A stretch of 64,000 nucleotides of DNA from Flaccisagitta enflata (lineage: Eukaryota): contig OZ231126.1 in NCBI GenBank assembly GCA_965153355.1, forward strand, positions 11,780,001-11,844,000. Reading direction: 5' to 3'. The position numbers and the translations under genes were made by a program. The notes under the pieces were generated by a model. That model had not been told where the DNA came from. It did not search any database and saw only the letters and a program-made list of their open reading frames with translations. Numbering within the stretch: position 1 is the first letter of the stretch; each line of letters opens with the position of its first letter. Below, one piece after another: positions 2,436-64,000 of this stretch.

Positions 2436-5400
2436 TGTGATGTTCAACTGCCTTTTGTAAGTTTTATTTTTTGTTTTTATTCTACTGATCTTGATGTTGT
2501 GTTTTGTTTGCCACTTATATTGAACGCCCAGATGGGCAACCAGCGAGTACAGCTCTGATTTTTGTGCCGCTACACGAGCAAAACATCACGCAACTCGCTT
2601 TTCGATCATCCAATTTTGGATTGATTGATTTTATTTATCTACGGCATTGCTTCTTAAAGTGATCGATTGACCTTTCGCGATCGTTTGAATGCGCCCTTGG
2701 AATTTACTAATTTCAACAATTTCTCATCTTTTATTGCAGATAACCCAATGAACGGACAATTAACGCTAGACTGACATCGACAGACTGAAGGTTGAAACTA
2801 ACAAAAGTAATCCTAAAAGTAAGTTTTATAGACGCCGTTTTTGCTTTTAGTAATTCAGCGGATTCTGTCTCCTGTTCATTATTTTTGTCACCTTTTGCAT
2901 TTTGTGATTTCGCTTCAGATTTTAGTATATTTTACTCACTATCTGATCAAATATTATGTAATATGATAACCTTAATGATAATGGTAGTAAGTATAATATC
3001 AGCACAATTTAAACTAAGATTAACATATCATGTGCTGTTTTGTCTTATTATCTCATTCCATGATTGATAAAGATCTTTTGCGCTTTGTTGATCATAATTA
3101 ACACCACTACTGCTGTTAAATTTTATGAACAAACGACACATCATCATTTCTAATTCACTTTTTTTCACCATGAAAATATTACTGAGACGCTCAGACATAG
3201 CTGGTTGAATTTTAAAGTAGAACTATATTTAACAATGAAAACCATCATCTTTTTTATCCACTTCCAACGAATGATAAAAAAATATGACCTAACATCGCTT
3301 CTTTACTCATTTAACACATCTGCAGAGATCTATCAATTTAACTAGTATCTTATATTTAATCTCACAGCATTAGTAACTGATAACATTGTAAATGAGATGT
3401 TGTGCTTGAATACTAAAAGTTTATTTGGTACCATAATTAATGACTTAATATCACGTGAACTGATGCGTTTCGATTCAGACGCTTCGGGATAACACTTATC
3501 GACAACTTCATCATAACACTAACATACCGACTCGATGCTCCGATCTCTCTTCATTCGCGCCCTTCGCGCTTAACCACAAAATGATCATGTTGATCGTAGT
3601 GTAATCATCCAGAGTGGTTCAATCGTTGGCGTGATCGTGAACTGAAAATAAACATACGGGAAAATGCAAAAATGTTCACAACTAATTTTCTTCTATGAAC
3701 AGTTCAACTTCTCATATCACCTTACGCTTGCAGGATACATTTAAGATACCTTGATCTAATGATGCAACGCTTCATACAAAACTTTATTTAGATCCTAAAG
3801 ATTTCCTTCACTACTCTGTCTAAGTGATATGGTAAGTGCATTCTTTACATATTAACTTTAACCTGCCGCCTCATCCAGCATATATCAATCAATGGTACAG
3901 ATTTTGGTCCCAGAACTGAATCCCGCGCGTATGCTCTTCCAATGATAGTTGACTGCTACACGCCAGTGGATCTCACGCTCGACGCTTCCGCCAGCAAGAT
4001 AGCCGGCGATCATCAACGATTGACGCCCCGCAGGAGAGGCGCAGGCGACGCTCGCTAACAGGAGTAATGAGGCACATGATGCAGTGCCGAGGATGAAACT
4101 TTGGCGCTTCGCTGTTGACTAACGATATGCATAACAACGGGAGTACAGCTATGAGAGCACCAGATGTAAGAAAGAGCAAAGACACTGCAGACAGCAGCAG
4201 TAACCCAACAATGAACGCTAACTCAATGACTATGATAAAGAAAGAACACCGCTCAATTATATAATATTAAAGTTAAAGAAAAGAAAGAAATATAATCTTA
4301 ATGACTTGTCAATAAGATCAGTAAATAACATCAGATCCAGAGCCAAACAACAACTCAGGCTATCAACAGCAACAACACGCTTCCAAACAAAAGTATAAAC
4401 ACATAACAACAACAACAACCAAATATAAATACTAACATAACAGAGTAGCACAGTGAACTTTCCTGCACCTGCAGAGAAGATCTCTGAGCTAAATGATCTG
4501 ATCTTGTTAAAGCATGAACAGTGAGAGACGGAAGAAGATATACAACGCTTACAGATCAACGTGGCTGCATATAGCTTAGCTGCATGTGTGTAATAGCAAC
4601 AGCCTTAAATACATACATCAAAAACATTAATTCCAATAGCTAGTTTCAACACATGAATAATGTATTATACCATTAAGAACAACTTTGTTGTATAAGTAAA
4701 TTAAAATTAGATAAAATATGAATTATTCAACAACACAAGAAGAATGTTAAAATGAGTACTGAAGAGCCTGAACTGATTTGCTGCATTGGTAGCTTTAGAA
4801 CGCGATGCGTTTAGGCAACCGTTCAGAGCTGAACAGCAGTGCAGCCGCATATCCTACTTAAAAGACCGCTACGATCTATCTTCTTCAGAAACTTTGACCC
4901 GGGATTATCTGACCGAATACAGAATACAAAACGCTGCAGTCAGTGGAAACGCCCGTCGCTGTTTTAATATAAAGAGCAACAATGTATGTTATATATGACA
5001 CCAGCGCTCAACTGCAGCAGAATTAACAGCAACAGTAAATTCTGACTACATAACAAGAAACAATTGATCAACAGTATATATAACTGGCTTTAATAACTAA
5101 CAGCATCAAGATTCTGGCATCACTGCTCCTCAGCACAACACTTCACTGCACCGATGATCGCTTATAGCAGACTACTCAGATGAGACTGGTTTTTCCCCAT
5201 CAAGAGGAAAAGGCCTTCAACATAGCTATGATAAGATAACTAATGGATATGTGATAGCTTATATATCATGACGCAATAACAACAGTTTTAAAGACAAAGA
5301 AGAGCATATATATAATATACCGTCTAAGAATATTTAACCCACGATTAGCCGGTTATAAAGAGCTAAGGCTCAGAATCACTCATGAAGTTTTATCAAAGAG

Positions 5401-15760: not shown

Positions 15761-18700
15761 TCTTAATTAAATTGCGCATATATTTCTTTTGAACTGAAAA
15801 TCTCGGAGCGAAATTCCATCGATTGGCTGGTTGTTGTCATATGACTAATTCTGAGACATATGTAAGTTTCAACTGGTGATATCCATTTAAGGATGGATTA
15901 GTCAGATTTACCTCATGAATCAATGAGTGTGCTTCTCCCTATTCCACTTAAACTTTAGTGCTTATACAGCACGTTGACCACATATTGCCTTGGGCACCTA
16001 ACCACCGCCTGTGCCAACCCCCATGACTGTATCTGTTTAGGATCCATCACCCCCCTCGACCACCTCTGGTGCCCTTCCCCGGCCCCCTGATTCAAACAGA
16101 TCATCGAGATGATTAAAAGATTTTGTACACTGACTTGATCAGCTCATGAGTGACTCGTTCATTAATTTAGTTGTGACACTATGATTTAGATTGTTTTACT
16201 TGCTGTTTTTTTGTCCATTATACTACACCCAACCCAGAATGTAATACCAAGAGTGAATACTGTTAAGATTGGGAAAAAGATGGCTGCTGAGGTGGGCCTA
16301 AAGAATGACTGTGTGATGCAACTGTCAGATGGGAATAAGACTTCACAAGATAGACAATGATACCAAATATGTTTTTGATAACCTTTTATCTTATATAAAA
16401 ATCAGAATGCAAAAATGAATAAAAGATAAGAAAATGAATGAGAAAATTGCTGCATTAATATTAAATGTGTTTAGGTTTGAAAATATGCTTTGTTTTGGTT
16501 AAGCACATATTCATTAAGATGGTTGAGGCCTCTGATTGACATCGTCTCTACCAGCACCCTCCCCCGTTGGTGTCACGGCACTTATATTGGGCTACTCATG
16601 ATCGAGTTTTGCTGAAAGTAGAATTGCTGTTTGCATCCCTCACCCCAATCATCCCAAATTCTAGATTACATTAGCAATGAGATATAAGGAAAATATAATT
16701 ATAATACATCCAGTTCCCAGCACACCACACTTGATATTTAGCTATACAGTCTGACTTTATAAAGTGACAAAAAATGAAAATATATCTGTAAGTTATCATT
16801 CAATAATGTTATATCAACATTTGAGGCACTTGAATATAATTTGCCTTTAAACAACAAAAGTTAACATCACAGACTGATCCGTGACAAGTGTTCAAACAAC
16901 ATTTAAAATGATGACCAATCTGCAATTGTAGCTTTATTCTGTTTAAGAAATAAAATCTCTTCCAAGTTGATGCTTTTCTACTTTCATGATGTTGATATAT
17001 TTATTAGCAAGATAGTAGTAACTATATTAATATATAGAAATTACAATTTTTCTAAAAATACAATAATGTAATTCAACAATTTTATAATGATTTTTCAATG
17101 ATGCAAGATCAATAATCATGTTAATAGAATGTAATTTTATTTCTTCCTGCATGATGGTCCTAAAAAGGGTAGTATCTGTATGTATGTAGATGCTGTGTAA
17201 TTATAAGGCCAGGATACATGGCTACCTGGTTAAGTGGTAAGGAGAGGCTGTGATTTTGAGGTCACTTGAGCACTGGCAGGATACAAAGATCAACCTGAAA
17301 AGTAAATTGTGATTGACGGATTGACAGACAAAACTGACAACGATAGAGTTTGCAGCACGCTAGAACGAGCAAACTATTGCCCTGTTTCGAATAATTTTTA
17401 ATATTTCTTTCCATTTCTTACTTCTTGAGTCACATCTATAACAAACTGTTTACTTTGATGCTACCCTGCTTCTTTTGAGTTTATATGGGCATGATAGGCA
17501 AATGAACTTAGATTTTCTGCAGACATCTGGCTCTATCATAGATTCATTCAGCTGCAAAAATTTGGGGATGGGGATGTTGTTTTATAAGAGTTACACCAAA
17601 AACAGTTTGAAAAATTCAAAAATTGTATTATTTGCCATTTAAACCAAATACTTTTGTGTTAAAGATGAAAAATGAATAAATTTTGGGGACATCTTTTCCC
17701 ATCATAGACTACTACATCAATAAAAACTTTGGGGATGGATGCTGATTATATTTCACACCCCAAAAACAGTTTAAATAATTCAAAAATCGCATTAGTATTC
17801 CTAAACCAAAATTTAGTGCTTAAAGGACCAAATGAATAAATTTTTAGTGACATTCTGTCCTATCATGACTAATATACAAAGAATTTGGGGATGGGGTGTC
17901 AGAACACTAATATGCATTACACTTTCAGAAAACAGCTAAAATTAAAAATCATTGCTTTTGGCCATTTTAAACTACAATTTTATTTAATGCGTGAAGGCTG
18001 CCACACAGCACACAAGAAATGAATTGAACTTTAGATGACTTCTGTCCTAACACACCATCACAGACAGATGTTAATGGATATGTTACACTAAAACAGCTTT
18101 TATGTAAAAGTCAAAATGTGATTTTTTACATTTAAACCAAAAATTTTTAAACAAAGCAGATTTAAATGAATAAATTTTTGGGGACATTCAGTCATCATGA
18201 TCATTATACAGAACAAATTTGGGGATGAGGATGTCACACCAATATGCACACCTGAAAAATAGCTTAAAAATTCAAAATCACATTTTTTGCCATTTGAAAA
18301 CTAAATTAAGTTTAAAGATGATTTAAAGCCCAACAGATTAAAGACATCTGTCCTATCATAATAATATAAAGCACAAAAATTTGGGGATGGGGATGAAACA
18401 AATGATTATGCCCTCACACCCTAAAACAGCTTGTAACTGTAAATCAGCATTTTATCATTTGCAAACCAAAATGTTTGTGCTGAAAGCGTGACGGATATGA
18501 ATAATTTTTGGGGACATCTGTCCTATCATGGACTACTGTGCCATTGAAAAATTTTGGGGGATGGGGATAATGTTTGATATAGCAAGATGACTAAAATGAA
18601 GTAAAAATTCAAAAAATCATTTTTTACATTTGGGAACTGAAATTTTTATGCTTAAAGCATGACGGGAAACAAAATTCTGGGGACATCTGTCCTATATCAT

Positions 18701-23300: not shown

Positions 23301-26300
23301 GACTGGTCTTCCCCATCAAGAGGAAAAGGCTCCCAACACAGCCGTGGAAGCGGATATGATGCGACGGAGAATGATGCGCAGGAGGCAGAAGTAAAGAGGA
23401 TAAGCGCTGACGCGGTTACACAGCAGCTGTAATAGCAGATAAAGAAAGAAGAAAGTGTTGCTCCCAAGAAGACAATGAGTGGATTGCAGCCAAAGGCGCC
23501 GAAAGGAAGCGTGCTGCCTCATAACGCCTCAATAGGTCATCCAGCAGAATCACTGCAGCAGGAAGTGGATACCTGAATATGATTCATATAGAGATTTACC
23601 TTGGCTGCACAAGAAGAGAAACAATCAAAAGAGGAACAACAAACAACAGCGACAGCACGCCCTTGCTAAGATTTTGATGCCCTACTCCATCAAGATGATC
23701 ACAACAACAAGTGAATCCGGAAAAGAGCTGGGCTGGCGTAAAACCACCAAAAGAGATCTTCCGCAGTGTCGTAAATAATACATTTATCCAACAACCCCAG
23801 CGATTACCGGCGGAGCATCAACAGCCCATTAACCGGGAAGTCCGCGTCGATGCCCAACAACTGCTCTGGGACAGGTTTGGAAAGAGCGACGTGACAAATG
23901 ATCCTTGACAAGTGAGCAAGGAGGCTTCCACCTTCCTGTGCTGGAGAGAGCAAGGTTATCTTTATAGCTTGCAGAGCCATCCACCACTTCATGATAAGAG
24001 AAAATCAAAGATGCTGAGAAGCATGAAGGCTTGACTTTAAAATGACATCTCCAATAATTGCCTATGGTCGTTATCCGCAAAAGATGTTATTATGACCGCT
24101 GAAATTTGCGCCACGATGAAACGTTTATTACCAGCAAGAGGAGAATTGGACAGACGCCTTTTCGCAAAAAATGGACGCTGCCTTCACATGGCGCGCTGCA
24201 ACATTGCGGAAGAAACACGAATCACACGAAGCGAGCTATGATATCTGCTGGCCGACCATGCATTTAATTGCTCTGCCAAAGTTGCAAAAGGCAAAGAAGA
24301 TTTATGGACCAGAGAAGCAACAATGCTATTATCATGATTGGCTGCTGCAGGAGATCTCACTGTAGTTATGTGGTCCTCATCTTTAGTGATAAATTTGGGA
24401 AAGCAGATCATGAAGCAGCCTAAATGGACAATTATTTGGTCTGGACAACTTAATGGCCACATCGATATTACAGATTCAGCAACAAATGCTAAAGTTGAAA
24501 GATCTGCGGCAGCAGCTTCCGGAACTACAGAAAATATAAGCTACTATCATATGAAGATGCTTTGACTAATGGCAAGCAAAGACGCAGAAGTCGATTTGAC
24601 CACTGCAACAGCTCTGCAGTGAATGCACGCAGAGAAGAATGTCATCAGCCGTTAGAGCAAGGACGCCGAGAGTTCGCAAAGATCATGTGTCCGACGTCTT
24701 TGCTTCCACTGCCTCGCGCCAGGACACAACGCCAGTGATGCGCTAACAGCACCACTTAACAAACTCAAAGCTGGCACGCACCATTCACGGCACTGCCAGT
24801 GCAGGCAATAGAATAATATATAGCAATAAGCAGGAAATATACGCCCGCTATTCCTCTTCAAAAAAGTCAGAGACGTTGCAGACAATTTTAACATCACGAC
24901 GGTGAGGCAGCCAACTTGCTGAAGATGACCTTCAACGCCACGGCATGACTGGTACACGCACGGCGTCCGCCTTCTTTTCACCAACACGCCAACCGTCCGA
25001 TTGTTCCAGCGATCATCATAACACCTTTCGGCGCGCAGAGGACGATTTACGCGGCGATCATCCAGGGCGCTGACGGCGACGCGATCAGCAATAACAAGTC
25101 ATTCGCAGTCTTCGATTCCAAATTTTAAAACAGCAAATGACGGATTATCGGAAGTCATGCCGCTGAGGACTGCTCATCGCACGTTCACTATGCAAATCGG
25201 TCACGAGAATACCACGCCAACCACGCATTGGTGCGATTTCCATATCGAGTGAACGCGACATTCCTCCTTTTCTCCTCGCACCTATCTGACCAACCCCGCA
25301 TCAAGGCATAAAATTTCAGCTGGCGCGCAGATGATGATCACTCCGTGGAGCTGGCGATGCGATACCACGTCGCTCTGCACAAACCCCGCCGAGGCTTTCA
25401 TAGACCTTTGACTGCTTCAGATGTCTATTCCTGGTTGACCGTATGCGGAAAACGCGAAGAGGACGAGATATTGCGCTTCATCAATCGCCATCGCGCACGG
25501 ATGATCACGCCTTCCTCAATCTATAACATCGATCGGCATCTCATAATCCACAGTTCTCATACATGATTAACCGCTTCTTCTACCATGACTTTGCATCATC
25601 AATCGTCTCGCAAGAGAGGATGAGCGATTCCCTAGAGAATATCAGAGCGTGCAAAACGTTAGAGGAAAAGATATATTTTTGCCCAATTCAGAAAAAGTAC
25701 TTTGCTCCTGTCACATGGAAATTTCATCACGCAAAAATCATGGAGATTCTGAGAAGAGTGAAATCACGATCGACTGCGATGAAGCGACTTGGTAACCAAC
25801 GTTTTCGCTTCAAGCGTGATCCAGCCTTCAAAGAAAGAGTCTTCCTGCATAATCAGGAGGAAATGACGCAGACGGGAGTGGCGACAGAAGATGATAATCA
25901 AACAATGCCGACGACGACGATTTGCATTACAGCCGCTGGCGCTTACGCTTCATATTGTTGAATTATGAAAACAGATACACGATGCATGTAGTATGCCCAC
26001 GGGATTCACTCACGATTTGCTCGCCGGAGGTCCAAACCCTATGAACAGCTGAGACATCCCTCTCTCATGCTGGCTGCAAGATCGCCTCTATGTGATATAA
26101 AGAGAGCGCCTGAATTGCATCCGCGTCCAACCCTGACGACGCTGACCTGTCTAGATTCTTTTTGGTTCAAAGACCGCATTTCCATTAGGCCATTTTGAAT
26201 CTGTTCTTATCGCTGCTCCCGGGCACAATCTGCGCCATTCGCCACATCTTTCACCGTCAGAAAGCAGGCCGAAGCAATCCAAATCAAATATCTCTGCAAC

Positions 26301-28890
26301 GTCTACGATCTTATTCGCTTCGGCTTCTACGTCGACGATTTACTTGGAGGTGGGGATTCGGCCGACGAAGCACTGCAGTTGAAGGTGGATGCAGTGGTGG
26401 AGATGGCTGAAGGCGGGATGGACCTTGTGCAGTGGAAAAGCAACGCGCGGCACTTGATGGCTGGAGATCCTAACGTGCCTACTCCCATTTCAGATAAGGT
26501 AGATGATGCGCCGACGAAGGTGTTGGGCGTCCCATGGCTTCCGGCGGAAGACGTCTTCATTTTCATCTGATTTGAGGAATTCAAAACTCTTAGAGCAAAC
26601 ACACCTCGTCAATTGGTCTCCATGTTACTAAACTTTATGATCCATTGACGGGAGTCCGAGCGCATACAACTGGCAGACGAATCTTCAGTCCTGTCGTCCA
26701 CAGGAAGTGGATGCAGATTCGCCTTGGAAGAGAGCTGCTGAGTGGAACTTTTCTTCCCACACTTCATCTGGCTCCTTTCACAACAATACCACTGAACGCT
26801 GGTGGAATGGCTATGCTTCGATAATAGTGGCACATTGGTGAAATGGTTTAATGAGCATCTTTTTGTGACAGTGGCTCCAAAAGGCGGATATGGAGCAGTC
26901 GCATATCGACGCTAACAATCGAGATGAGATACCAGACATTTGCCTATCATTTCTCCACCCCACTTCGCATCACTTAATCTCAAACGTGCTTCATCACAAC
27001 AGCTGCTCACGCGTCGAGATTGTGTATCCACAGAAAAAAGTGCAGCAGCTCAAACGCTTGCCGAAGGACCATCGACTGATAATCTTTTGTTTATCTGGTC
27101 TGATTCTGAATCTTTCCTCTGCACTGAAGACATTTGCCAACCATAAACAGGCCTGTATTTTTCGCCAATCGCCTCTCCACATCCATAGCGGTCTGATCAA
27201 CAGTAAGGCTGGATTGGCCAATGCCCAAGTGACCACTGGCAGAGGCATTCCAGGCCCATGAAGCTGAAATGGCATTAATCATGTCCTGCATTTTTTAAAT
27301 CTTCCCGATGATCAATGGCCAAAGACGAATATCGCGACGTGCCCTATTTCTGCACAAGTCACCGCATTGTATGTGGCTGAAAGTAAAAAGAAACCAGTGG
27401 CTGACGCGATACTTCTTGCAGCAGCTTCTCGGGGAAAATGGATGCATAAGCTGCGGATCATCGGCATGGCCCTTATAGCAGTCAAAAGGTGGAGATAGTA
27501 CCCAAGGGCAAAGACACGAGCAGCAAATGATCTCCTTCAAACCGGAAGTGACGCAAGACGCTTTGGAGGAGGCAAGCAAATAGCTTGTCAAGTCGATGCA
27601 GCGGCCTGAATGGAAAAAGCATCATTATCCAGACACTCCTCTAACACTGAGCTGGGGGAAAAGTCTTTAAACCAGAAAGTCGTCATGACTTCATCATAAA
27701 GAATAAAGAGATGCGGAAATTGAATCCTTTCATTGACGAATACAGAATATCATATTCATGAATGACAAAACGCCACATCGCACATGACGCTAAATTTCCC
27801 TTCATCCTTGCCGCCAAAAGACGAGAATGTGAAATCATTGACCCGCCATTATCATCACAATGATTTTCACGCGGGTACAAAGCATACACTGAGTCAATTA
27901 CGCCAATTTGTGTGGATTACAAAAGGTCTTCAGGCCGCCAAGAGCGTCGTCAACAAGTGCTTCAGATGCCAGAAGAACTTTAAAAAGAAATCTAATCAGC
28001 AAATGGCCAATCTTCCATCAAATCGCGTCAATCCTGCGCCTGTCTTTGCAGAGACTGGATTGGATGTCATGGGGCATTTCCTAGTTAAAATGAACGGGCG
28101 TGCTGATCACAGCGTGGATCGAGTGTTCACCTGTTTTCGTATCACGCGCCATCCATGTGGGGAATTGCTCTTCAACATCAGCGACGCGATGGTAACCGCA
28201 ATCATCCGCTGAGCAAGGCGCCTCCAGAATCGCCGTTTCACATCAGATTGCGGACGAATCTAGTAGGCGCCACAATATCCTCAAGAAGCGATATGAAGCT
28301 GGGAACCGGCCTCGTCAACTCCCTTTAACTGCATGGCTCTTTGTGATTTCATCACGCCGAGAACACCTCACTATGGAGGGGTGTGAGAGAGAATCGTCGT
28401 TCTCTTCAAGCGCCATATCGCTTCCATCTCGACTGGCGCCATCCTCCACGCCGGCGCCTTCAATACTGCTGCCGCCGAAGTTGAAGGAATTCTCAATCGC
28501 TGTCCTCTAACAGCGCTCAGCGATGATCCAAATGACTCTGAGGCCTCAACACCTAATCATATCCTCAATCCATCGACATCCGGTCACGCCCCCCTGGATC
28601 TGGTGCAACAAGGCGACAACTCTGACGCCGACTCATCGAAGATTCAATGGTGGAGTGCGCACTCATGGGTGGATGCATTTAGGAAATCGTGGAGGGTCGA
28701 ATATTTGCCGCTTCTTCACGCGCGAAGCTCATGGTTGAGATCCGAGAAAGACTTTACGGTAGACGACATGGTCATCGCCATGGACGAAGCGCTGCCTCGT
28801 CACAACTGGAGTTTAGGACGAGCCCTGGGCGTCGAGGGATCGTCCGCCCATGTCCGGAGGGCTCACATCCGGCGCCAAGAGGAAGAAATG
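20314..28890 (+). mobile_element. BEL/Pao LTR retrotransposon copy 2: 5' LTR (~20314-21151), frameshifted gag-pol, 3'-truncated
   Basis: Gag zinc knuckle RRLCFHCLAPGHNA at ~24692. RT FYVDDLLGGGDSADEA..WKSN..KVLGVPW at 26325-26540. RNase H FCD..GYGAVAY at ~26860 and FIWSDS at ~27089. Integrase HH..HAG..WI..C..C and QQMANLPSNRV..PVFAETGLD at 27784-28212, then TPHYGG. C-terminal WRVEYLPLL..W..W.LGR at 28603-28953. The order PR-RT-RH-IN is typical of BEL/Pao. Confidence 0.93.
21360..28890 (+). pseudogene. Disrupted BEL/Pao gag-pol polyprotein
   Basis: Domain motifs are spread over many short ORFs in all three + frames. Confidence 0.85.
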
Positions 28891-29029
28891 ATCAATGTGA
28901 TCTCTTGGTATCTTCAACTTAAAGTAGTTAGTAACTCTAAGGCCTATGCGTGAGGATTTCTTGAAAGAACTTGTTTGTTTACAAACTCAAAAACGTAAAT
29001 GATCAATATTTTAGAAACACTTGATGCTA

Positions 29030-29270
29030 ATCGGGACACTATGTTAAGCTATGCTAAGGGTCATATGATCAATAATGGTCAACAATGGTCATACCAGGTT
29101 TAGATATTTTCAACATTTATATGTTCTGTCCCTATTAGCCCCGCTTTTTTTGTATTTTTGGGGCTAATAGGGACCAAATGAACAAATAGTGAAAAATCTG
29201 AACCCGATATGATTATTATTGCAGTTTTGGTACTGTTGTCCCTAAATAGACTATATTAACACATCTCGCT
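29030..29270. mobile_element. Palindromic MITE-like element
   Basis: GTCCCTATTAGCCCC (29127) and GGGGCTAATAGGGAC (29160) are perfectly inverted, with degenerate arms extending outward. Confidence 0.6.
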
Positions 29271-29466
29271 TTTTCAGTCGTACGTTTTAGCTGAATTTAG
29301 CCCTCATTTCTGAGGTCTGATCCTTTTCTCTTCTAGCTTGCATTTTGGAACAGGACTGTAGAAAATATCTCGGCATTAATTTGCGCAAATATTTATACTT
29401 TTCTCAAGGCTAGGGAAGCTAAATTTTTAATGACTGATGAAATTTGAGCCTTGTAACTGGGTACCA

Positions 29467-29539
29467 TAGTTTACCGGCGGTCGGACTGAGACGCTTTTGA
29501 GACGAATAACTGAGTATCTGCTACTTTGTGTTATCTATA
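29467..29539 (-). repeat. Partial 3' LTR-like direct repeat (73 bp, 1 mismatch to 34050-34122)
   Basis: TAGTTTACCGGCGGTCGGACTGAGACGCTTTTGAG(A/G)CGAATAACTGAGTATCTGCTACTTTGTGTTATCTATA occurs at both sites. Confidence 0.9.
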
Positions 29540-29561
29540 TTGTCATGTTGATTCTATATTG

Positions 29562-32500
29562 TCATGTTGATTTTGCTAGTATCTCTTTCACTGAGAAGGG
29601 CACAACTGAGCGTTCCACGAATTGCTTGGCAATGAACACTGCCATATTGATGTCAGTTGCCCCTTTTCGATTTATTTCAGCCCTTAAGGCATCATTCCTC
29701 AAGCCTCTGAGAAAGTACGATAGGACTGCTTTTTTGTAGCTCTTGGTTTTTCTGAGAGCATTAATTTCATCTGGTGGTATGGTTTCATCATACACTTGTT
29801 GTGCTCTAAAACCATAATCATCCAAGGCCTCATGTGCATGTCTTTCAAGCTTTTCAAGCTCATTGTCATGATGTGCTGTTGTATCACTTGAAATGAAGAA
29901 TGCTACTTTTGTGGCTAATTCATCTGTTGTGATGTCTGGTGTTTCGCTGATGATCTTGAAGATGTGCTTCTGTATATTTGGCTTGTGTTTCTGAAAGCAA
30001 TCAGTAAATAAATTTCTTCTCCTTCTTTCACTTAGTTGGCAGTCAAGTGCCTCTGTTGTTTTGAAGTTAAAGTGAGAGTAGAATTCTCTGAAACTATCAT
30101 ATCTTTTTGGATCATACTCAGGTATCTTTAGAAGCTTAATGTCAAAGTTTAAGTTCTGTAGCTTTTCCTTCTGTTGATCTTCAATTCTTTGTCTTTGTCT
30201 TGTAGCTTCTTTGTCTTTTAAATCAAAAAGACGTTCACTCTTTCTGATCCTTCTGTCATTCATTTGATGTCGACAACAGCATGGACGTCTTCCTTGTTGA
30301 TCATCATCATCATCTCCATCATCATCATCATCATCTTCATGATCATTGGGATCTTCATCTCTGCAACCATTATTTCTGGTGTGAGGATGTGGAAAATTTG
30401 AGCCATGATCATCTCTTTGTCCACGATCATCTCTTCGTCCACTTGGATGATGGTACCTTTCTTCATGGCCATTTCCATTCTGTCTTTCACCCCCCGCAGA
30501 GAATGAAGAATCCTTTTTTGCAGTCACATCACCTTTTTCCAACATGTTCATAAGTCGTTTTTTGGCATCTGCTGCCTCTTGCTCCAATTTTTTGTTGATA
30601 TGATGCTTATTTTCATTTTTAACATCATGTCTTTCAGTTTCTTCCTTTTTGGGGATCTTCATCAAATCTCTCATCATTTGTTCATTGGAGTTTCCCACAT
30701 GATGGCCTGATTTATCAATTGTAGGCATGATATACTTTTCTCTTGCAGCTTTGTCATCATATTTGTCTGCATCTCTGACTTCCCTTGCCATTTGTTCCAT
30801 TGCCTCATGATATGAAAGCAGTGGGTCGGTCTTCTTTTTGTTTGGAATGGGTGGCAATTCCTTTATGCCTTGCAGATTATATTCTGGCAATTGATTATCC
30901 CATGCCATGGATTCTACTCTGGCTTGATCATGTGTTGAGCCAACAGATGACTGGCATGGCGAATTTTGTAATGGTGTTGAGTGCGCACCAGGTGCCTTGA
31001 TTTTCCATTTTGGAGATATGACCACAGGTTTGAACCCTTCTTGCTTCACATTCCTCCTAGGAACAACAAAGTGTCGGTTGTAAATTTCTTTGAAGGATTG
31101 TAGAAAGTCATGAAAGTTTTCTCCCACACATGGGATGTCTTTCAGGAAAGGGTGTTTTTGGCGAGTTGTCTTTTTTTCTTCATCCATTCGGCAAGAAATT
31201 TCAAGTTCTTTGTCCAAGGCTAGAGGTCCACTCCTTGGAAAGCCTCGACGACCTCTCTCTTCTCTTGTCATGTTGTGAACATGATCATTTACTGCACTCA
31301 GAAACAATGTCCTTGGCCCCTCTTGATCATTTGTTAGAAATGGTGTCTCAGGCCTGGTAAAAAGTTCAAATGGCCTGATTGGTTCCCATCCTTGGGCTTT
31401 CTTTGCCATGAAGCAATCACAGCTCTTGCTGTATTTCAAATCCAGATTGGTGGGGAATTCCTTTTCATCAAACATTAGTTTGAATAGTTCCATGTTTCTC
31501 TCCATGTGTCCTTGAATGTCGGTTATGATGGACATCATGGGCAGTCCCAAAGGCAGCTGATTAGGTCCTGAGGGACCCATGTCATAGTTTCCAACTGACC
31601 AGCACATGCCCAGGATTTCATCATGGATTTCAAAGAACTTGTCAAACTCTTTTTTTCTGTTTGAAACCATGTTTTGAAACAGAAGATATTGGATGAACTG
31701 AAATTTCTCTGTTTGGATCATAGGACCATCCGTTTCATAGAGAGCTTCCAGTTTGACAAAAGCATCAACTTTGCTAGTATCAGTAGCAAAATCGTGTGCC
31801 ACTTTGATTTCTTTATCTCCATTCGGCGTTACAATGAAGATTGAAGTTTTGTTGAAAAGTTTAATTTGATCACTTCCAAACAAAGTTTCTCGAGTGTAGG
31901 CCTCCTGAGTTTCCCGATTGTCATTTGCCAAATGAGCTGGAAACTTAGGATAATATCTCTCCGTCTTATGTTGTTCATCAACATTCATTGGATTCAATTT
32001 GTAGGGCTCTTTGTCATTGCAGCACCTTCCTTTTAAGAAGGGTGAGGCATTTTGACATCTGTAACAAAAAGCAACAATACCATGAGGATATTCATCTACA
32101 TTACCTTCAGTTACAACATTTTTCATATCAACATGAGAAGTATTTTTTGTACGATTCGCGCTTTGGTTTCCACCGGCAGATGCACCTGAAATGAAATCAT
32201 TATCAAATCTTAGAGAAGGGGAAGGTACAAGCATCCGTTTGGGACTAGTGTTGTTTTGGTCTGAGACAGGTACAGACGAACCAGTCTTGTTGTGTTCACT
32301 GACAGGTACAGCCAACGGATCTTTTTTGTCAGTGTTTGTCAATGTTTGGTCATCAGTTCTGTCACTAGCTTGAAATCTGACTGTCTCATCATCAATGTCA
32401 CTGTTGAGACTAGTTACTGAGGCAGCTAAATTCAACTGACTACTTCCTGCTTCCCTGTTTGTTTCATTCAGCACGCCATCACCTTCATAACTTTCAATGT

Positions 32501-33110
32501 TTTTACCAGATTGTTCAAGAAAATTAGTCACCTTGACTACACTAGGAAAAATTCGAGTAGAGTCAAAAATGATCTCATCGTAAGGCTTCCTGATTTCGTT
32601 ATCATTATAAGTATCAGGAAAGCTATCATAGGTGACCCTTGGATACATTCCATATCCCTTTGCTCGTTTGAGAGGAAAATCCCAAGATACGTCATATGTG
32701 AATTGTTTCTCTGTACCCATTTTTTCGAGCAATTCTTCTCTTTCATGTCTTAATGCGTCAAAAGTAATGTCACATGTGCATTGTTTGTTGTTGTTCTTTT
32801 CGCATGTTCGGCAAGGACGCAGGCAGTCGATTATTTTTTGAAATCCGTAAATTTTGTAAACCACATTTTTTGCAAACTTGGGTTTGAAAGGAATTCGCAT
32901 TGTCGCAACTGCTGAAGCTAGTTCTCCTACCTCACTGCAGGCAAAGTTCAGAACCGGGTCGAAACCTTCTTCTCCTCCAACCTTTATGTACTTCGCCTTT
33001 GGAGCGGAGGAACGAAAACCGACTTCCGGTACGGTCGTAAACCGCCTGTTGTCAAGATCCTTCCCTTGCCACCAATTTTGGCGCCATTTTTCTCTCGTGT
33101 ATGTCGCCAT
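29562..33110 (-). CDS. 1182-aa intronless protein with a C-terminal Ty3/gypsy-like Gag capsid domain and a long uncharacterised N-terminus
   Basis: Uninterrupted ORF. The C-terminal LKIPEYDP..SFREFYSHF, LERHAHEALDDYGFRAQQV (MHR-like) and YFLRGLRNDALRAEI..KGATDINMAVFIA follow the retrotransposon capsid pattern. No zinc knuckle or pol follows. Confidence 0.85.
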   Translation of the reverse strand: MATYTREKWRQNWWQGKDLDNRRFTTVPEVGFRSSAPKAKYIKVGGEEGFDPVLNFACSEVGELASAVATMRIPFKPKFAKNVVYKIYGFQKIIDCLRPCRTCEKNNNKQCTCDITFDALRHEREELLEKMGTEKQFTYDVSWDFPLKRAKGYGMYPRVTYDSFPDTYNDNEIRKPYDEIIFDSTRIFPSVVKVTNFLEQSGKNIESYEGDGVLNETNREAGSSQLNLAASVTSLNSDIDDETVRFQASDRTDDQTLTNTDKKDPLAVPVSEHNKTGSSVPVSDQNNTSPKRMLVPSPSLRFDNDFISGASAGGNQSANRTKNTSHVDMKNVVTEGNVDEYPHGIVAFCYRCQNASPFLKGRCCNDKEPYKLNPMNVDEQHKTERYYPKFPAHLANDNRETQEAYTRETLFGSDQIKLFNKTSIFIVTPNGDKEIKVAHDFATDTSKVDAFVKLEALYETDGPMIQTEKFQFIQYLLFQNMVSNRKKEFDKFFEIHDEILGMCWSVGNYDMGPSGPNQLPLGLPMMSIITDIQGHMERNMELFKLMFDEKEFPTNLDLKYSKSCDCFMAKKAQGWEPIRPFELFTRPETPFLTNDQEGPRTLFLSAVNDHVHNMTREERGRRGFPRSGPLALDKELEISCRMDEEKKTTRQKHPFLKDIPCVGENFHDFLQSFKEIYNRHFVVPRRNVKQEGFKPVVISPKWKIKAPGAHSTPLQNSPCQSSVGSTHDQARVESMAWDNQLPEYNLQGIKELPPIPNKKKTDPLLSYHEAMEQMAREVRDADKYDDKAAREKYIMPTIDKSGHHVGNSNEQMMRDLMKIPKKEETERHDVKNENKHHINKKLEQEAADAKKRLMNMLEKGDVTAKKDSSFSAGGERQNGNGHEERYHHPSGRRDDRGQRDDHGSNFPHPHTRNNGCRDEDPNDHEDDDDDDGDDDDDQQGRRPCCCRHQMNDRRIRKSERLFDLKDKEATRQRQRIEDQQKEKLQNLNFDIKLLKIPEYDPKRYDSFREFYSHFNFKTTEALDCQLSERRRRNLFTDCFQKHKPNIQKHIFKIISETPDITTDELATKVAFFISSDTTAHHDNELEKLERHAHEALDDYGFRAQQVYDETIPPDEINALRKTKSYKKAVLSYFLRGLRNDALRAEINRKGATDINMAVFIAKQFVERSVVPFSVKEILAKST

Positions 33111-34029
33111 TTCGTTGCGTGACCCGACGATGGCCCGATGACGTAAAGGCGGAACTGTTTTTACTTCCTCTCAACAGGACGTCTGTTTATTCCGAGTTTT
33201 AAGCAAGATGCAGGCAAGTGAGCGTTGATTAATGAGCAGTTATGTAATAAGCGTGTATTTCGCGCAGTGTATATCAGAACGCAAACTGGTTATGATGATT
33301 TTGTGATGCTAGTGGATGATGTTGGATGATAAATATTTCGATGATTAATCCAATGTGCGAAGTGATTGTAAAGTGAAGATAATAAGCTGATATTATTTCG
33401 TCTTTGAAGATGAACATTATTTCTTTTTATTCACACGGAAATGGTTATTACTGAAAGATGAGCAGAATTTCTTTTGATTTTCTTGTTTGTCGGCGAAAGC
33501 CGCCATAAATGGCGTATGAAAACGTGCGTCTATTATGCGTGTCCCCATAAAATTGCGAGTCACAGTCCCATTCATGCAGGGAACACTCTTTTTTTTGCTA
33601 AGCCTGAACACTCTCTCTCGTGATATTTCTTTTTCTTCTCTTCAGTAAGCACGCACTTTCATACGATCTTGATAGTGTGAAAATCGTTTTTACTATTTTT
33701 AGCATCAATATTTCTTTTTTCTCTTCATTTTTGAATTGAAAGATGAACCGATTCAGGAAGAAGGGAAAAAACGAGTTAACCCTCTTTTTTGGAAAAAAGT
33801 CGATCAGGTAGTTATTTTTTCTCTTATTTTTTTCGAAAGAATTTCGATAGAACGGCGCAAAAAAGAGGATTGAGTCAGTCAAACTTTTATGTGAAGATTA
33901 GAATTAATGCAGATGTTGATGTTGACAAGTCAGCTTACATTCCGCCCCTTAAAAACATTTTCACGTAACCCGACGCAGATAAATGCAGAACAGTAGGTAG
34001 CGTGTTGAGTTAGCACCAGCTTAAGTCGA

Positions 34030-34047
34030 AAATGGCCGCTGACGCCA
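34030..34047 (-). promoter_or_regulatory. Putative tRNA primer-binding site
   Basis: TGGCGTCAGCGGCCATT immediately follows the LTR-like ...ACTACA end. The cognate tRNA was not identified. Confidence 0.5.
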
Positions 34048-34389
34048 TGTAGTTTACCGGCGGTCGGACTGAGACGCTTTTGAGGCGAATAACTGAGTAT
34101 CTGCTACTTTGTGTTATCTATACTGATCTTATTATCTATTTGTATCATTATCATGATTATTAACATTTGTTATTGACTTTTAAAACGGATTTTAGGAGAG
34201 AGAGAAAAGATTTCTATTGAATGGGTTGATGATGAAAACGCGACTGAAAAAGTAAAACAGGATATCAAAATCAATGGGCTAAAGAGCACTCATGTTTGAA
34301 TGGTGCTTAGAGGCTACTAAGGTTGCACGATCTTATCCCATTCACTTCTTTGTTATTGTCGTTTCCAAGAATTTACGATAGTTTTTCTC

Positions 34390-34655
34390 TGATGGAACTC
34401 GGGAAAGGTCTGATAGAGCTCGGGAGAGTCCTGATAGAGCTCGGGATAGGTCTGATAGAGCTAGGAATGGTCTGATAGAGCTAGGGATAGGTCTGATGGA
34501 GCTAGGGATAGCTGTGGATTAATAACGCCCGGCGGGATAGGTCTGATAGAGCTAGGAATGGTCTGATAGAGCTAGGGATAGGTCTGATTGAGCTAGGGAT
34601 AGCTATGAATTAATAACGCTCGGCGCACCGTCTTGGCCCGTGTACCCGGCCTTGT
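34390..34655 (+). mobile_element. Non-autonomous element with a 20-bp tandem core (GGGATAGGTCTGATAGAGCT)
   Basis: About 10 units, ending in the GGCCCGTGTACCCGGCCTTGTT tail. The same core is at 45720-45930. Confidence 0.75.
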
Positions 34656-35070: not shown

Positions 35071-36990
35071 CAGTGTTGACAGTCAAAAAACAATTTTTTC
35101 ATCAAGTTTTTAGGTGTAAAACACACTCAAATCATTTCCGTTTTGTTCCCTCCATCCTTTACACCAGTGGGGGAATAGCTAAGGTACCTATCGACATGCT
35201 TGAATCGATTCTTAGTCCAGAAACAAGAAGGGAATAGCAAAAATCTATTTGGGAAATTCCACCAAAGGGAGAATCTAGCGTTGCGACATTTTCCTACCTT
35301 TTGAGTGTGATATCATACTTTCTTTGTATGATACAGACCCAAAGACTGAATGACCGGTCATGGGTGGTGCCATTGACCTACGGTACGACTTCTTACGTTG
35401 GCTGGTATTTACTCCCAGCCAAAAAGCAAAAATCCCTAAAAATATGTACCTCCCCCTGGTTGCGAAGCCAATTTGCATATTCAGAGAAGTCAGGGAATTT
35501 TGATGTATTGTATTATCATAAGTCACTCAAACACAAAACCGCCATTTAATCTTCGTCAGTTGGAACCCTGACCATCATTAGGTCTCAAAAATTTACCCTC
35601 CAGAAAGTTTTTTTCTGCTTATTTTGACCTTACTACAGAAAAAAAATCAAGAGTGAGAGTTTTTGAAAATATTATTTCTTGGACGTGAAAGTCTAAGACT
35701 GCCTCCACGAGTCAAATTTTGCATTTCCAAGAACATGGCTGTGATCTCTAGTGAATGTAGAACAGGGCCATGTGTTTATTTTTTTGATTTTGTGCGTTTC
35801 TATGCAAACTTAGACTTTCACGCGAGAACACTCAGACAGAATTTTGCAGATTTTGTTTTCTAGTCAGGGAACTTAAGGAAGTGTAGAGTCAAAATTGCCG
35901 AAAAACTCTGGAATTTCATTATTCTGACATATTTTTCCGTGCTGAACACAAATTTGACCTCCATTTTGAAATATTTTTTTGGCCCCCCCTTGAAAAATCC
36001 ATTTTTTTGCAATTTTATGGGTAAAAATGCATTTTTTTGGCTCTTTGAAGTACACTATCGTCACCTGGTTGCTTTTTTTAATAAAGCCTAACAAGAACTG
36101 AAGTGAATATACAGTTTACAAGAACTTTGCAGCTATACAGGGACTGTGTATTGCCAATAACAGGCCAAAAATGACCCAAAACAGCCAAAAACAGCATTTT
36201 TTTTCAAAAATATCAGTGTTATTTAAAAATTTTTTGCCAATCACTCCCAATTAGGTCAGAACTAGGACAAATACACTTATTGAGAGCTTAGGACACTGCT
36301 ATGAGGATCATAATAGGCAAAAACCAGGCCATAAATAGCTTCAAATGGCCAAATTCAGCATTTTCTTTGAATAGATCATTGATATTCAATTTTTTTTCGC
36401 AATTCTCACTTAAACCTGTCAAGACTAGGTCAAATATACTCAATAAGAGCTTTGGACATTGATACAGGAGTCACACCAGGCCAAAAACAAGCCAAAAATA
36501 GCCTAAGATAGCTAAAATTGGCATTTTCCTCAAGAAATTCATTATTATCGATAATTTTTTTGCCAATCTCACTCTATCCAGTCAGAACTAGGTCAGATAT
36601 ACTCATTGAGTGCTTTGAAAACTGATACCGTGACCAAAACAGGCAAAAAATGGTTTAAAATAATCAAAATTAACATTTTTATTCAAAAAAATTATAGTTA
36701 TTAAGAATTTTTTTACAAATCTCACTCACTAGGTCAAACATACTTATTTGGAAACTGTTATCGGGGCTATAACAGGTTGAAATAGCCTAAAATAGTCAAA
36801 ATTAAAACTCATGCGTGGTATTCCTTTGTAAATCTCACTATATCCAGTCAGAACTAGGACAAATAAACTTTAGACACTGATACCGGGGTCATGATAGACC
36901 AAAAACAGGCCAAAAATGGGCTAAAATGACAAAATTGACATTGTTATCAATCAAATCATTGTTATTAAAATTTTCAAGCCAATCAGCCGT
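35071..36990 (+). mobile_element. DNA transposon-derived segment: CAGTGTTGAC terminus and a degenerate ~180-bp internal tandem array (36160-36980)
   Basis: Terminus shared with 1-289; GTCAGAACTAGG(A/T)CAAATA recurs. The right end was not found. Confidence 0.55.

Positions 36991-42035: not shown

Positions 42036-47407
<5,372 letters not shown>

Positions 47408-62393: not shown

Positions 62394-64000
<1,607 letters not shown>

What the first reader, a model, noticed from the sequence alone, without database searches (positions are those of the whole stretch)
29467..34165. Intact gag-only LTR-like element with very short terminal repeats and no pol
Seen: the only long intact ORF in the window (1182 aa) lies between 73-bp direct repeats with one mismatch. 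The upstream copy ends ...ACTACA followed at once by TGG, and there is no room for protease, RT or integrase. Known: LTR-PBS-gag is the Ty3/gypsy layout, and gag-only non-autonomous elements (TR-GAG) are described mainly in plants. Inference: this is either a young animal gag-only family that makes its own capsid and borrows Pol, a one-off deletion product, or a Gag being domesticated (Arc/PEG10-like).
Basis: partly seen in the sequence, partly recalled or inferred. Interest (0 to 1): 0.75.

Follow-up and report, generated by a model that had tools for sequence, protein, structure and literature searches.

The report
Deleted copy of giant envelope retrotransposon
This is an ordinary broken copy of a retrotransposon that lost three quarters of its length in one deletion, but its parent belongs to an unusual group of very large, envelope-carrying elements, some of whose relatives elsewhere in the genome really do spread without their own copying enzymes.

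Summary
The 1182-aa ORF, the 73-bp repeat pair and a capsid fold are real, but the reading is wrong. The LTR is 291 bp (34050-34340); the left 73 bp is only the tail of the 3' LTR. The family has 4 gag copies: two run on into pol, one is a different deletion, and this junction is unique. Against an 18,333-bp copy on C6 (97.9% identical) the window lacks 13,494 bp: nucleocapsid, pol, dUTPase, env, polypurine tract and most of the 3' LTR. The ORF is not intact: a private frameshift ends it. Its pN/pS equals its siblings' (0.16 vs 0.18). Verdict: a young, one-off, immobile deletion product. What is unusual is the parent clade: 18-25 kb elements with one 3,576-4,266-aa Gag-Pol frame, mostly two protease motifs, F-type env, TG...TA ends. 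Two sister families outside the window are true pol-less Gag-protease elements with full LTRs, target duplications and constrained ORFs.

The parts
34050..34340 (-). complete 5' LTR, 291 bp, ends TG...TA
   Evidence: 287-288 of 291 identical to the C6, C2 and C6-28.5 Mb LTRs
34036..34049 (-). 2-base spacer (34048-34049) and primer-binding site; nearest tRNA 3' end seen is Leu(AAG/TAG), 10 of 12 bases
   Evidence: 294 tRNA gene calls, 28 types, an incomplete set; an exact-match search gave 3 hits against 4 in the control and none was a tRNA
33111..34035 (-). 5' leader, shared with the sibling copies
29562..33110 (-). truncated Gag frame, 1182 aa; residues 1-1166 match the start of the sibling's 3559-aa Gag-Pol frame
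30966..33110 (-). pre-capsid region (residues 1-715) conserved at 23-28% across the clade, six invariant cysteines, no known family
   Evidence: no PDB hit at E<=1, no credible Pfam hit, none
29613..30182 (-). complete two-lobed retroviral-type capsid domain (residues 977-1166)
   Evidence: model pLDDT 91.9; top 34 VIA rows are all capsids, best PNMA2 Z 10.2, rmsd 4.8, 164 aligned
29562..29612 (-). frameshift (4-base deletion near 29611) and 16-residue out-of-frame tail with the stop
29534..29572 (.). deletion junction: gag match ends at 29558, LTR match starts at 29539, 18 inserted bases between them form a 19-bp tandem duplication copied from both sides
29467..29539 (-). last 73 bp of the 3' LTR; no polypurine tract before it
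29260..29466 (.). left part of the high-copy host repeat into which the element inserted; its last 4 bases are one copy of the target site
   Evidence: (669 candidates, 40 scored)
34341..34393 (.). imperfect target-site copy (34341-34344, 2 of 4 bases match) and right part of the same host repeat
   Evidence: 10 of 11 other repeat copies run straight from the left part into the right part

Best explanation
A full-length, about 18.3-kb env-carrying Ty3/gypsy-like LTR element inserted once, recently, into a copy of an abundant host repeat (shown). Then, or during integration, a single deletion of 13,494 bp joined the end of the capsid coding region to the last 73 bp of the 3' LTR (shown). The junction, one base of microhomology plus an insert copied from both ends, looks like end-joining repair by repeated priming of the polymerase-theta type (inferred). 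A separate 4-base deletion ends the frame just after the capsid (shown). With no polypurine tract and no 5' three quarters of the 3' LTR the copy cannot be reverse transcribed into a two-LTR daughter even with borrowed Pol (follows from the standard mechanism of LTR reverse transcription), and a parent of this shape could not have given the complete 5' LTR seen here, so the deletion arose in this copy. It is a dead end. It keeps a promoter-bearing LTR and could in principle make a nucleocapsid-less Gag (untested).
For: 4 gag copies in the genome, junction in 1. C6 copy 97.9% identical over 4794 bp, with one 3576-aa frame holding CCHC, two DSG motifs, YVDD, RNase H and integrase. C2 copy also continues into pol up to an N gap. 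LTR 291 bp in 7 of 8 LTR hits, stub only here. Empty site contiguous in 10 of 11 host-repeat copies. Private changes syn/nonsyn 11/7 (window), 11/8 (C6), 11/8 (C2) over 1176 codons: same pN/pS, the mark of selection during replication, none extra here. Contigs of 3 of 3 DNA runs lack the frameshift and run on past 29561 into other sequence. A second, different deletion copy lies in tandem on C6, so such losses recur.
Against: The junction was not seen in any independent data set: no contig piece shown spans it (contigs drop rare variants), so it rests on this assembly alone, and this family is split at an N gap elsewhere in the assembly. The target-site duplication is imperfect (2 of 4), which needs a second small event. 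The capsid domain is complete and the frame stops right after it, as in domesticated capsid genes. Genome searches give lower bounds for copy number.
Confidence: 0.88

Rival explanations
1. Assembly artefact: reads from the gag end were joined to the LTR tail and a full-length element really sits here.
For: Junction not seen in 3 DNA runs; another insertion of the family appears split between C2 and C6 (identical LTRs 292 of 292, same outer 4-mer, N gap on C2).
Against: No N gap in the window copy; the junction carries an 18-base templated insert and a private 4-base deletion lies 50 bp away; the copy has 18 private substitutions, so it is a distinct molecule; the runs laid differ from the window at most private sites, so they show other copies.
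Confidence: 0.05
2. Incipient domestication: the capsid-complete, nucleocapsid-less Gag is expressed from the intact 5' LTR and is kept by the host, for example as a dominant-negative brake on its own family.
For: Complete capsid fold; stop right after it; intact LTR, leader and ATG; no premature stop in 1166 codons.
Against: No extra constraint; the copy is so young (at most about 7-10 post-insertion changes in 3.5 kb) that an open frame is expected; it sits inside a high-copy repeat; not seen in other runs' contigs.
Confidence: 0.04
3. A replicating gag-only non-autonomous family (TR-GAG-like) of which only one copy was assembled.
For: Pol-less Gag-protease families do replicate in sister lineages of this genome.
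Against: Those families have two full LTRs, a purine tract and exact 4-bp target duplications; this copy has one full LTR, no tract and a unique junction.
Confidence: 0.03

Closest known systems
Env-carrying Ty3/gypsy elements ('ancient errantiviruses', F-type env; Chary and Hayashi, PMC13524379)
   Same: Parent layout LTR-PBS-gag-pol-env-PPT-LTR, PR-RT-RH-IN order, env with signal peptide, basic cleavage site, hydrophobic peptide and C-terminal membrane segment; F-type by language-model features; Leu-type PBS.
   Different: 18-25 kb with a 3.8-kb or longer pol-env gap, beyond that survey's filters (region <=10 kb, gap <=1 kb, LTR distance <=14 kb); one Gag-Pol frame; about 1000-1400 aa before the capsid; two protease motifs; antisense dUTPase; intron-like gap in env; TA ends. 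The window copy itself has none of pol or env.
Burro / GYPSM1 giant gypsy-like elements of planarians (Arkhipova and Yushenova, PMC6431247)
   Same: Very large LTR elements with one huge polyprotein (4,873-5,140 aa there; 3,576-4,266 here), F-related env, dUTPase.
   Different: In Burro Gag is N-terminal, env lies in frame between gag and pol, dUTPase is in frame between PR and RT, and there are thousands of copies; here the capsid is deep inside the frame, env is a separate downstream gene, dUTPase is antisense after pol, copies are few. Sequence relationship to Burro not tested.
TR-GAG and other non-autonomous LTR elements of plants (PMC13570524)
   Same: Gag retained, enzymes lost.
   Different: They keep identical flanking LTRs, PBS and PPT; the window copy does not. 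The sister families N1 and N2 do fit (Gag plus one protease).
MaLR of mammals
   Same: Animal non-autonomous LTR elements (PMC4724089 passages call them non-autonomous); a gag-like ORF in their interior is recalled, not confirmed by a call beyond 'vaguely Gag-like' remarks there.
   Different: ERV-L related, ancient and multi-copy; shows that pol-less, Gag-bearing elements are not plant-only.
Domesticated capsid genes (PNMA2, Arc, dArc1, PEG10, MOAP1)
   Same: Same capsid fold.
   Different: Fold similarity only (10-14% identity); no fixation, synteny or lineage-specific constraint here.

Membership tests
Non-autonomous Gag-only LTR family (TR-GAG-like), window copy | Two complete, near-identical LTRs | tested here: not met
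   5' LTR 291 bp, 3' piece 73 bp
Non-autonomous Gag-only LTR family (TR-GAG-like), window copy | Polypurine tract before the 3' LTR | tested here: not met
   present in C6 and C6-28.5 Mb copies, absent here
Non-autonomous Gag-only LTR family (TR-GAG-like), window copy | Several insertions sharing the structure | tested here: not met
   1 of 4 gag copies; counts are lower bounds
Non-autonomous Gag-only LTR family (TR-GAG-like), window copy | Gag ORF with capsid fold, no RT/RH/IN | tested here: met
Non-autonomous Gag-protease family, sister loci N1 and N2 (outside the window) | Full LTR pair, PBS, PPT, target duplication, no RT or IN, more than one insertion | tested here: met
   5 of 7 regions examined have LTR pairs 96.3-99.9% alike with matching 4-bp flanks (two in simple-repeat context); RT and IN baits from 6 clade members hit 0 of 7 regions at E<=1e-6
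Domesticated Gag (Arc/PNMA/PEG10 type) | Capsid fold | tested here: met
Domesticated Gag (Arc/PNMA/PEG10 type) | Constraint acting on this locus beyond its mobile relatives | tested here: not met
   pN/pS 0.16 vs 0.18 and 0.18; low power, 18 changes
Domesticated Gag (Arc/PNMA/PEG10 type) | Expression | tested here: inconclusive
   0 reads laid from about 6% of one RNA run; the tool marks this as no test
Domesticated Gag (Arc/PNMA/PEG10 type) | Orthologous locus in related species | not testable with these tools
   G000 has no relatives in the collection
Ty3/gypsy (Metaviridae), parent element | PR-RT-RH-IN order between LTRs, DDE integrase, short target duplication | tested here: met
   4-bp duplications at C6 and C7
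Ty3/gypsy (Metaviridae), parent element | RT groups with Ty3/gypsy in a tree | tested here: inconclusive
   no tree built. RT profile ranks foamy Pol (E 1.8e-13) and MLV RT (1.1e-10) above Ty3 RT (3.4e-8); named homologues are K02A2.6-like at 22-27%; RVT_1 in 6 of 6 members
F-type errantivirus, parent element | Downstream env of paramyxovirus/baculovirus F type | tested here: inconclusive
   sister ORF on C8: features 0.95 to Baculo_F/Fusion_gly clusters but low recognition score; 25% identical to this family's env, E 1e-26; no PDB sequence hit; not folded
Canonical LTR termini | 5'-TG...CA-3' | tested here: not met
   TG...TA in this family and in 5 of 5 N1/N2 copies; the C8 31.06 Mb sister ends in CA

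The most novel reading that the evidence does not exclude
The window copy is a fragment of an undescribed, deep-branching lineage of giant endogenous retrovirus-like elements (18-25 kb; one 3,600-4,300-aa Gag-Pol frame with an unknown 700-aa cysteine-bearing domain before the capsid and two protease domains; F-type env interrupted by a spliceosomal-type intron in this family; antisense dUTPase; TA ends) that has bred its own satellites: 10-kb and 21-kb pol-less elements that keep Gag and only the first protease under purifying selection, build and mature their own particles and borrow Pol. The split would suggest that the two proteases divide the work, one for Gag and one for Pol.
Probability: 0.5. 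Interest if true: 0.65.

Novelty: new variant of a known kind. Interest (0 to 1): 0.4.

Why it matters
The locus itself matters little: deletion copies of LTR elements are common. It is a useful warning that a truncated LTR mimics a 'short LTR' element. The parent clade matters more. It extends the size and layout range of env-carrying LTR elements in animals, falls outside the filters of the one metazoan-wide errantivirus survey I read, and offers natural pairs of autonomous and Gag-protease-only elements in which to ask what a non-autonomous element gains by keeping its own capsid and what a second protease is for.

Tried and rejected
Pfam on the window protein: no credible hit. Single-sequence fold: pLDDT 42.8, not used. 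Nine-sequence capsid profile against PDB and Pfam: nothing useful; the 42-sequence profile gave PNMA2 at E 6.9e-7. Foldseek gave no match at E<=0.001, although its top rows were capsids. Split-direct-repeat (DIRS/Ngaro) reading: rejected, the relatives have ordinary LTRs and a DDE integrase. Recombinant between two insertions: rejected, both flanks are one host repeat. Exact tRNA for the PBS: not found. Expression: no RNA holder listed; 0 reads laid from one RNA run, no test. Pre-capsid region: no family. Earlier findings: 3 look-ups, nothing. Paper searches with no hits. Of 49 capsid matches I examined this family's 4, 6 loci and 20, with some overlap; of the 9 loci without RT I followed 7 (L127 and L137 not followed). 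The errantivirus paper's element table (supplement) was not read, so an overlap with its elements is not excluded.
Full report
OBSERVATION. The minus-strand ORF runs from 33110 to 29562 and gives 1182 aa; it is the only frame over 300 aa among the 18 of 150 aa or more. The repeats at 29467-29539 and 34050-34122 match at 72 of 73 bases. The rest does not. Searching the genome with the right-hand repeat and its flank shows a 291-bp LTR (34050-34340): 8 hits of 8 candidates, seven about full length and one, the window's left copy, only the last 73 bp. The LTR begins TG and ends TA: the 3' ends in the window, at C6 74.87 Mb and at C6 28.54 Mb and the C7 solo LTR all stop there, with exact 4-bp duplications around the C6 array and the C7 solo LTR. 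The nearest tRNA end among 294 gene calls of 28 types is Leu(AAG/TAG) at 10 of 12 bases; an exact partner was not found.

WHAT IT IS. A mid-gag probe finds 4 copies of 4 candidates: the window, two on C6, one on C2. The copy at C6:74856064-74874396 is 18,333 bp and 97.9% identical to the window over 4794 bp. It has one frame of 3576 aa stop to stop (3559 from the ATG) with CCHC at 1270, DSG motifs at 1428 and 1890, YVDD at 2483 and the integrase core at 3261; Pfam gives rve E 7.6e-9, RVP 3.4e-5, and weak RT, RNase H and second-protease hits. After pol come an antisense dUTPase (E 1.2e-38), an env-like gene, a purine tract and the 3' LTR. The C2 copy follows the same path to element position 9240, where an N gap cuts it. 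The second C6 copy is another deletion, gag joined to the env tail. In the window the match to gag ends at element position 4766 and resumes at 18261: 13,494 bp are missing, with 18 bases between the two matches. Those 18 bases make a 19-bp tandem duplication built from both sides of the join. A 4-base deletion near 29611, private to the window, shifts the frame, so only residues 1-1166 are family sequence, and the zinc knuckle 92 residues further on in the sibling is gone.

THE CAPSID. Pfam does not see it directly. A profile of 9 clade members found 60 proteins; of 34 proteins scanned, 11 carry Retrotrans_gag, several also Ty3_capsid or PNMA. The language-model search points the same way (0.94). 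With a 42-sequence alignment residues 977-1166 fold at pLDDT 91.9; the top 34 rows of the wide structural search are all retroviral or retrotransposon capsids, led by PNMA2 (Z 10.2, rmsd 4.8, 164 aligned). Foldseek agrees in rank, though with no E<=0.001. Residues 1-715 are conserved at 23-28% in 6 sister frames with six invariant cysteines and match nothing.

INSERTION AND AGE. The left flank is a high-copy repeat (669 candidates); in 10 of 11 other copies it continues directly into the sequence right of the element. So this is a single insertion. The target duplication matches at 2 of 4 bases; the two odd bases equal the dinucleotide that precedes the 3' LTR in full copies, which fits a retained cDNA overhang (inference; a one-base case is proposed in PMC2857682, passages read). 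Over 1176 codons the private changes are 11 synonymous and 7 non-synonymous in the window, 11 and 8 in C6, 11 and 8 in C2 (pN/pS 0.16, 0.18, 0.18; 3 codons set aside). All three carry the constraint of the replicating lineage, and the window has no more than the others. Since neutral decay would be about three quarters non-synonymous, at most about ten changes in 3.5 kb postdate insertion: the copy is young, and an open frame needs no selection to explain it. In 3 DNA runs the contigs over 29561-30285 lack the frameshift and run on past the junction; none shown spans it. One RNA run gave 0 reads from about 6% of its data, which the tool marks as no test.

HOW IT WORKS. Shown: single insertion, one large deletion, one frameshift. 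From established mechanism: plus-strand synthesis needs the purine tract, and a daughter's 5' LTR is copied from the parent's 3' LTR, so this copy can neither move nor have come from a parent of its own shape (non-autonomous elements keep identical LTRs, PBS and PPT; PMC13570524, passages read). Inferred: the junction resembles end joining with templated inserts by repeated priming (PMC5068794, abstract and headings read); a template switch during reverse transcription is not excluded. Confidence 0.88. Rivals: assembly artefact 0.05 (the family is split elsewhere: C2 5' and C6 3' LTRs are 292 of 292 identical with the same outer 4-mer); incipient domestication 0.04; unseen gag-only family 0.03.

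THE CLADE BEHIND IT. The capsid domain has 49 matches in the genome (65 candidates). Of 6 loci read, three have LTR pairs spanning 25.5, 23.9 and 18.5 kb and five have single frames of 3652-4266 aa. Two protease motifs between CCHC and RT appear in 5 of 6 long frames. Env-like genes are homologous among four families; a naturally uninterrupted one scores 0.95 against F-type fusogen clusters, with a low recognition value, so this is a strong lead and not a fold. In the window's family the env gene lies in two frames whose gap has GT...AG and pyrimidine-rich motifs in both copies; splicing was not tested. The RT is divergent: its profile ranks foamy and MLV RT above Ty3 RT, named homologues are K02A2.6-like at 22-27%, and no tree was built; domain order, single RNase H and capsid argue for Ty3/gypsy. 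Close relatives exist as unnamed ENA proteins, one of 4066 aa.

REAL POL-LESS FAMILIES, ELSEWHERE. Of 20 capsid loci with short frames, 11 have RT within 10 kb and 9 do not. I followed 7 of the 9. RT and integrase baits from 6 clade members hit none of the 7 regions. Five have LTR pairs, PBS, purine tract and matching 4-bp flanks. Family N1 (three copies, 10.3-11.3 kb) encodes Gag, CCHC and the first protease; two copies 96% alike differ by 89 synonymous and 54 non-synonymous changes (pN/pS 0.16; 17 multi-hit codons skipped), while each has LTRs over 99% alike, so the pol-less form has been copied under selection. Family N2 (two complete copies, 21.3-21.5 kb, plus relatives) encodes capsid and one protease, pN/pS 0.32. 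Neither shows env. Mobilisation in trans is inferred.

COMPARISON AND NOVELTY. The window copy is an ordinary deletion derivative and fails the tests for TR-GAG and for a domesticated Gag. Its parent works like an F-type errantivirus (PMC13524379: abstract, first part of section 5, section 14 and passages read; element table not read), but that survey kept regions up to 10 kb, pol-env gaps up to 1 kb and LTR distances up to 14 kb, and its main text has no mention of dUTPase, non-autonomous or giant elements. Burro elements are larger and also use one polyprotein, with a different order (PMC6431247, passages). Pol-less animal elements are known as MaLR (PMC4724089, passages; their gag ORF is recalled). 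I found no description of this combination in searches, which cover only the held library and not Repbase or Dfam. Verdict: the finding as stated is not supported; the lineage is a new variant of a known kind; interest 0.4, nearly all of it owed to the clade and its pol-less satellites.

Noticed in passing
G000:C6:74856064-74874396 (L012-L014): Full-length relative, 18,333 bp: 3576-aa frame with two protease motifs, antisense dUTPase (Pfam E 1.2e-38), env-like gene in two frames whose gap has GT...AG intron-like motifs in both copies that carry env.
   Followed up: yes
G000:C5:16751746-16762083, C1:99623062-99633635, C9:68147399-68158723; candidate C3:82.75 Mb: Family N1: 10-11 kb pol-less elements, Gag-CCHC-one protease (1979 and 1981 aa; frame broken in the C9 copy), full LTRs, PBS, PPT; pN/pS 0.16 between two copies (89 syn, 54 nonsyn); Gag 88-91% identical to the autonomous C1 9.82 Mb element.
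   Followed up: yes
G000:C7:70767787-70789255, C9:14214811-14236092; relatives at C1:2.35, C9:5.44, C1:14.15, C5:81.1 Mb: Family N2: 21-kb pol-less elements, capsid plus one protease without CCHC (1480 and 1443 aa), about 11 kb without long ORFs, LTR pairs 99.6-99.9% alike, exact 4-bp duplications, pN/pS 0.32; LTR 79% like a stretch at the C2 46.27 Mb locus.
   Followed up: yes
G000:C8:18004087-18029549, C1:9822898-9846802, C8:31057674-31076175, C2:46270576-46283373, C1:106520130-106531535: Other giant members: 25.5, 23.9 and 18.5 kb between LTRs, single frames of 3652-4266 aa; env-like genes in three, antisense dUTPase in one. An ENA protein of 4066 aa (P0003) belongs to the same clade.
   Followed up: partly
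G000:C6:74851139-74856354: Second deletion copy of the window's family, in tandem before the full copy and sharing an LTR; gag joined to the env tail, 99.7-100% identical to its neighbour.
   Followed up: yes
G000:C2:97720704-97729995 and C6:28539548-28544578: 5' half and 3' part with identical LTRs and the same outer 4-mer on two chromosomes: one insertion split by assembly or rearrangement.
   Followed up: partly
window 34341-34344: The two target-site bases next to the 5' LTR are replaced by the dinucleotide that precedes the 3' LTR in full copies, as if the unprocessed cDNA overhang was kept during gap repair; a one-base case is proposed in PMC2857682 (passages).
   Followed up: partly
window about 25500-28950 (+): Fragmented BEL/Pao-type element: DUF5641 E 1.1e-12, Integrase_H2C2 E 7.6e-9, a YVDD motif at 26199-26567.
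   Followed up: partly
window 44903-45160 (+): Exon-like stretch of a GDA1/CD39 nucleoside phosphatase gene (E 5.7e-9): a host gene spans part of the window.
   Followed up: partly
window 34388-34625, 45746-45931, 36159-36650, 62526-64000: Dispersed 21-bp tandem unit, a degenerate 163-bp array and a 112-bp satellite.
   Followed up: no
G000:C4:75.7-76.1 Mb and C7:68.6 Mb: Long tandem arrays of tRNA gene clusters.
   Followed up: no
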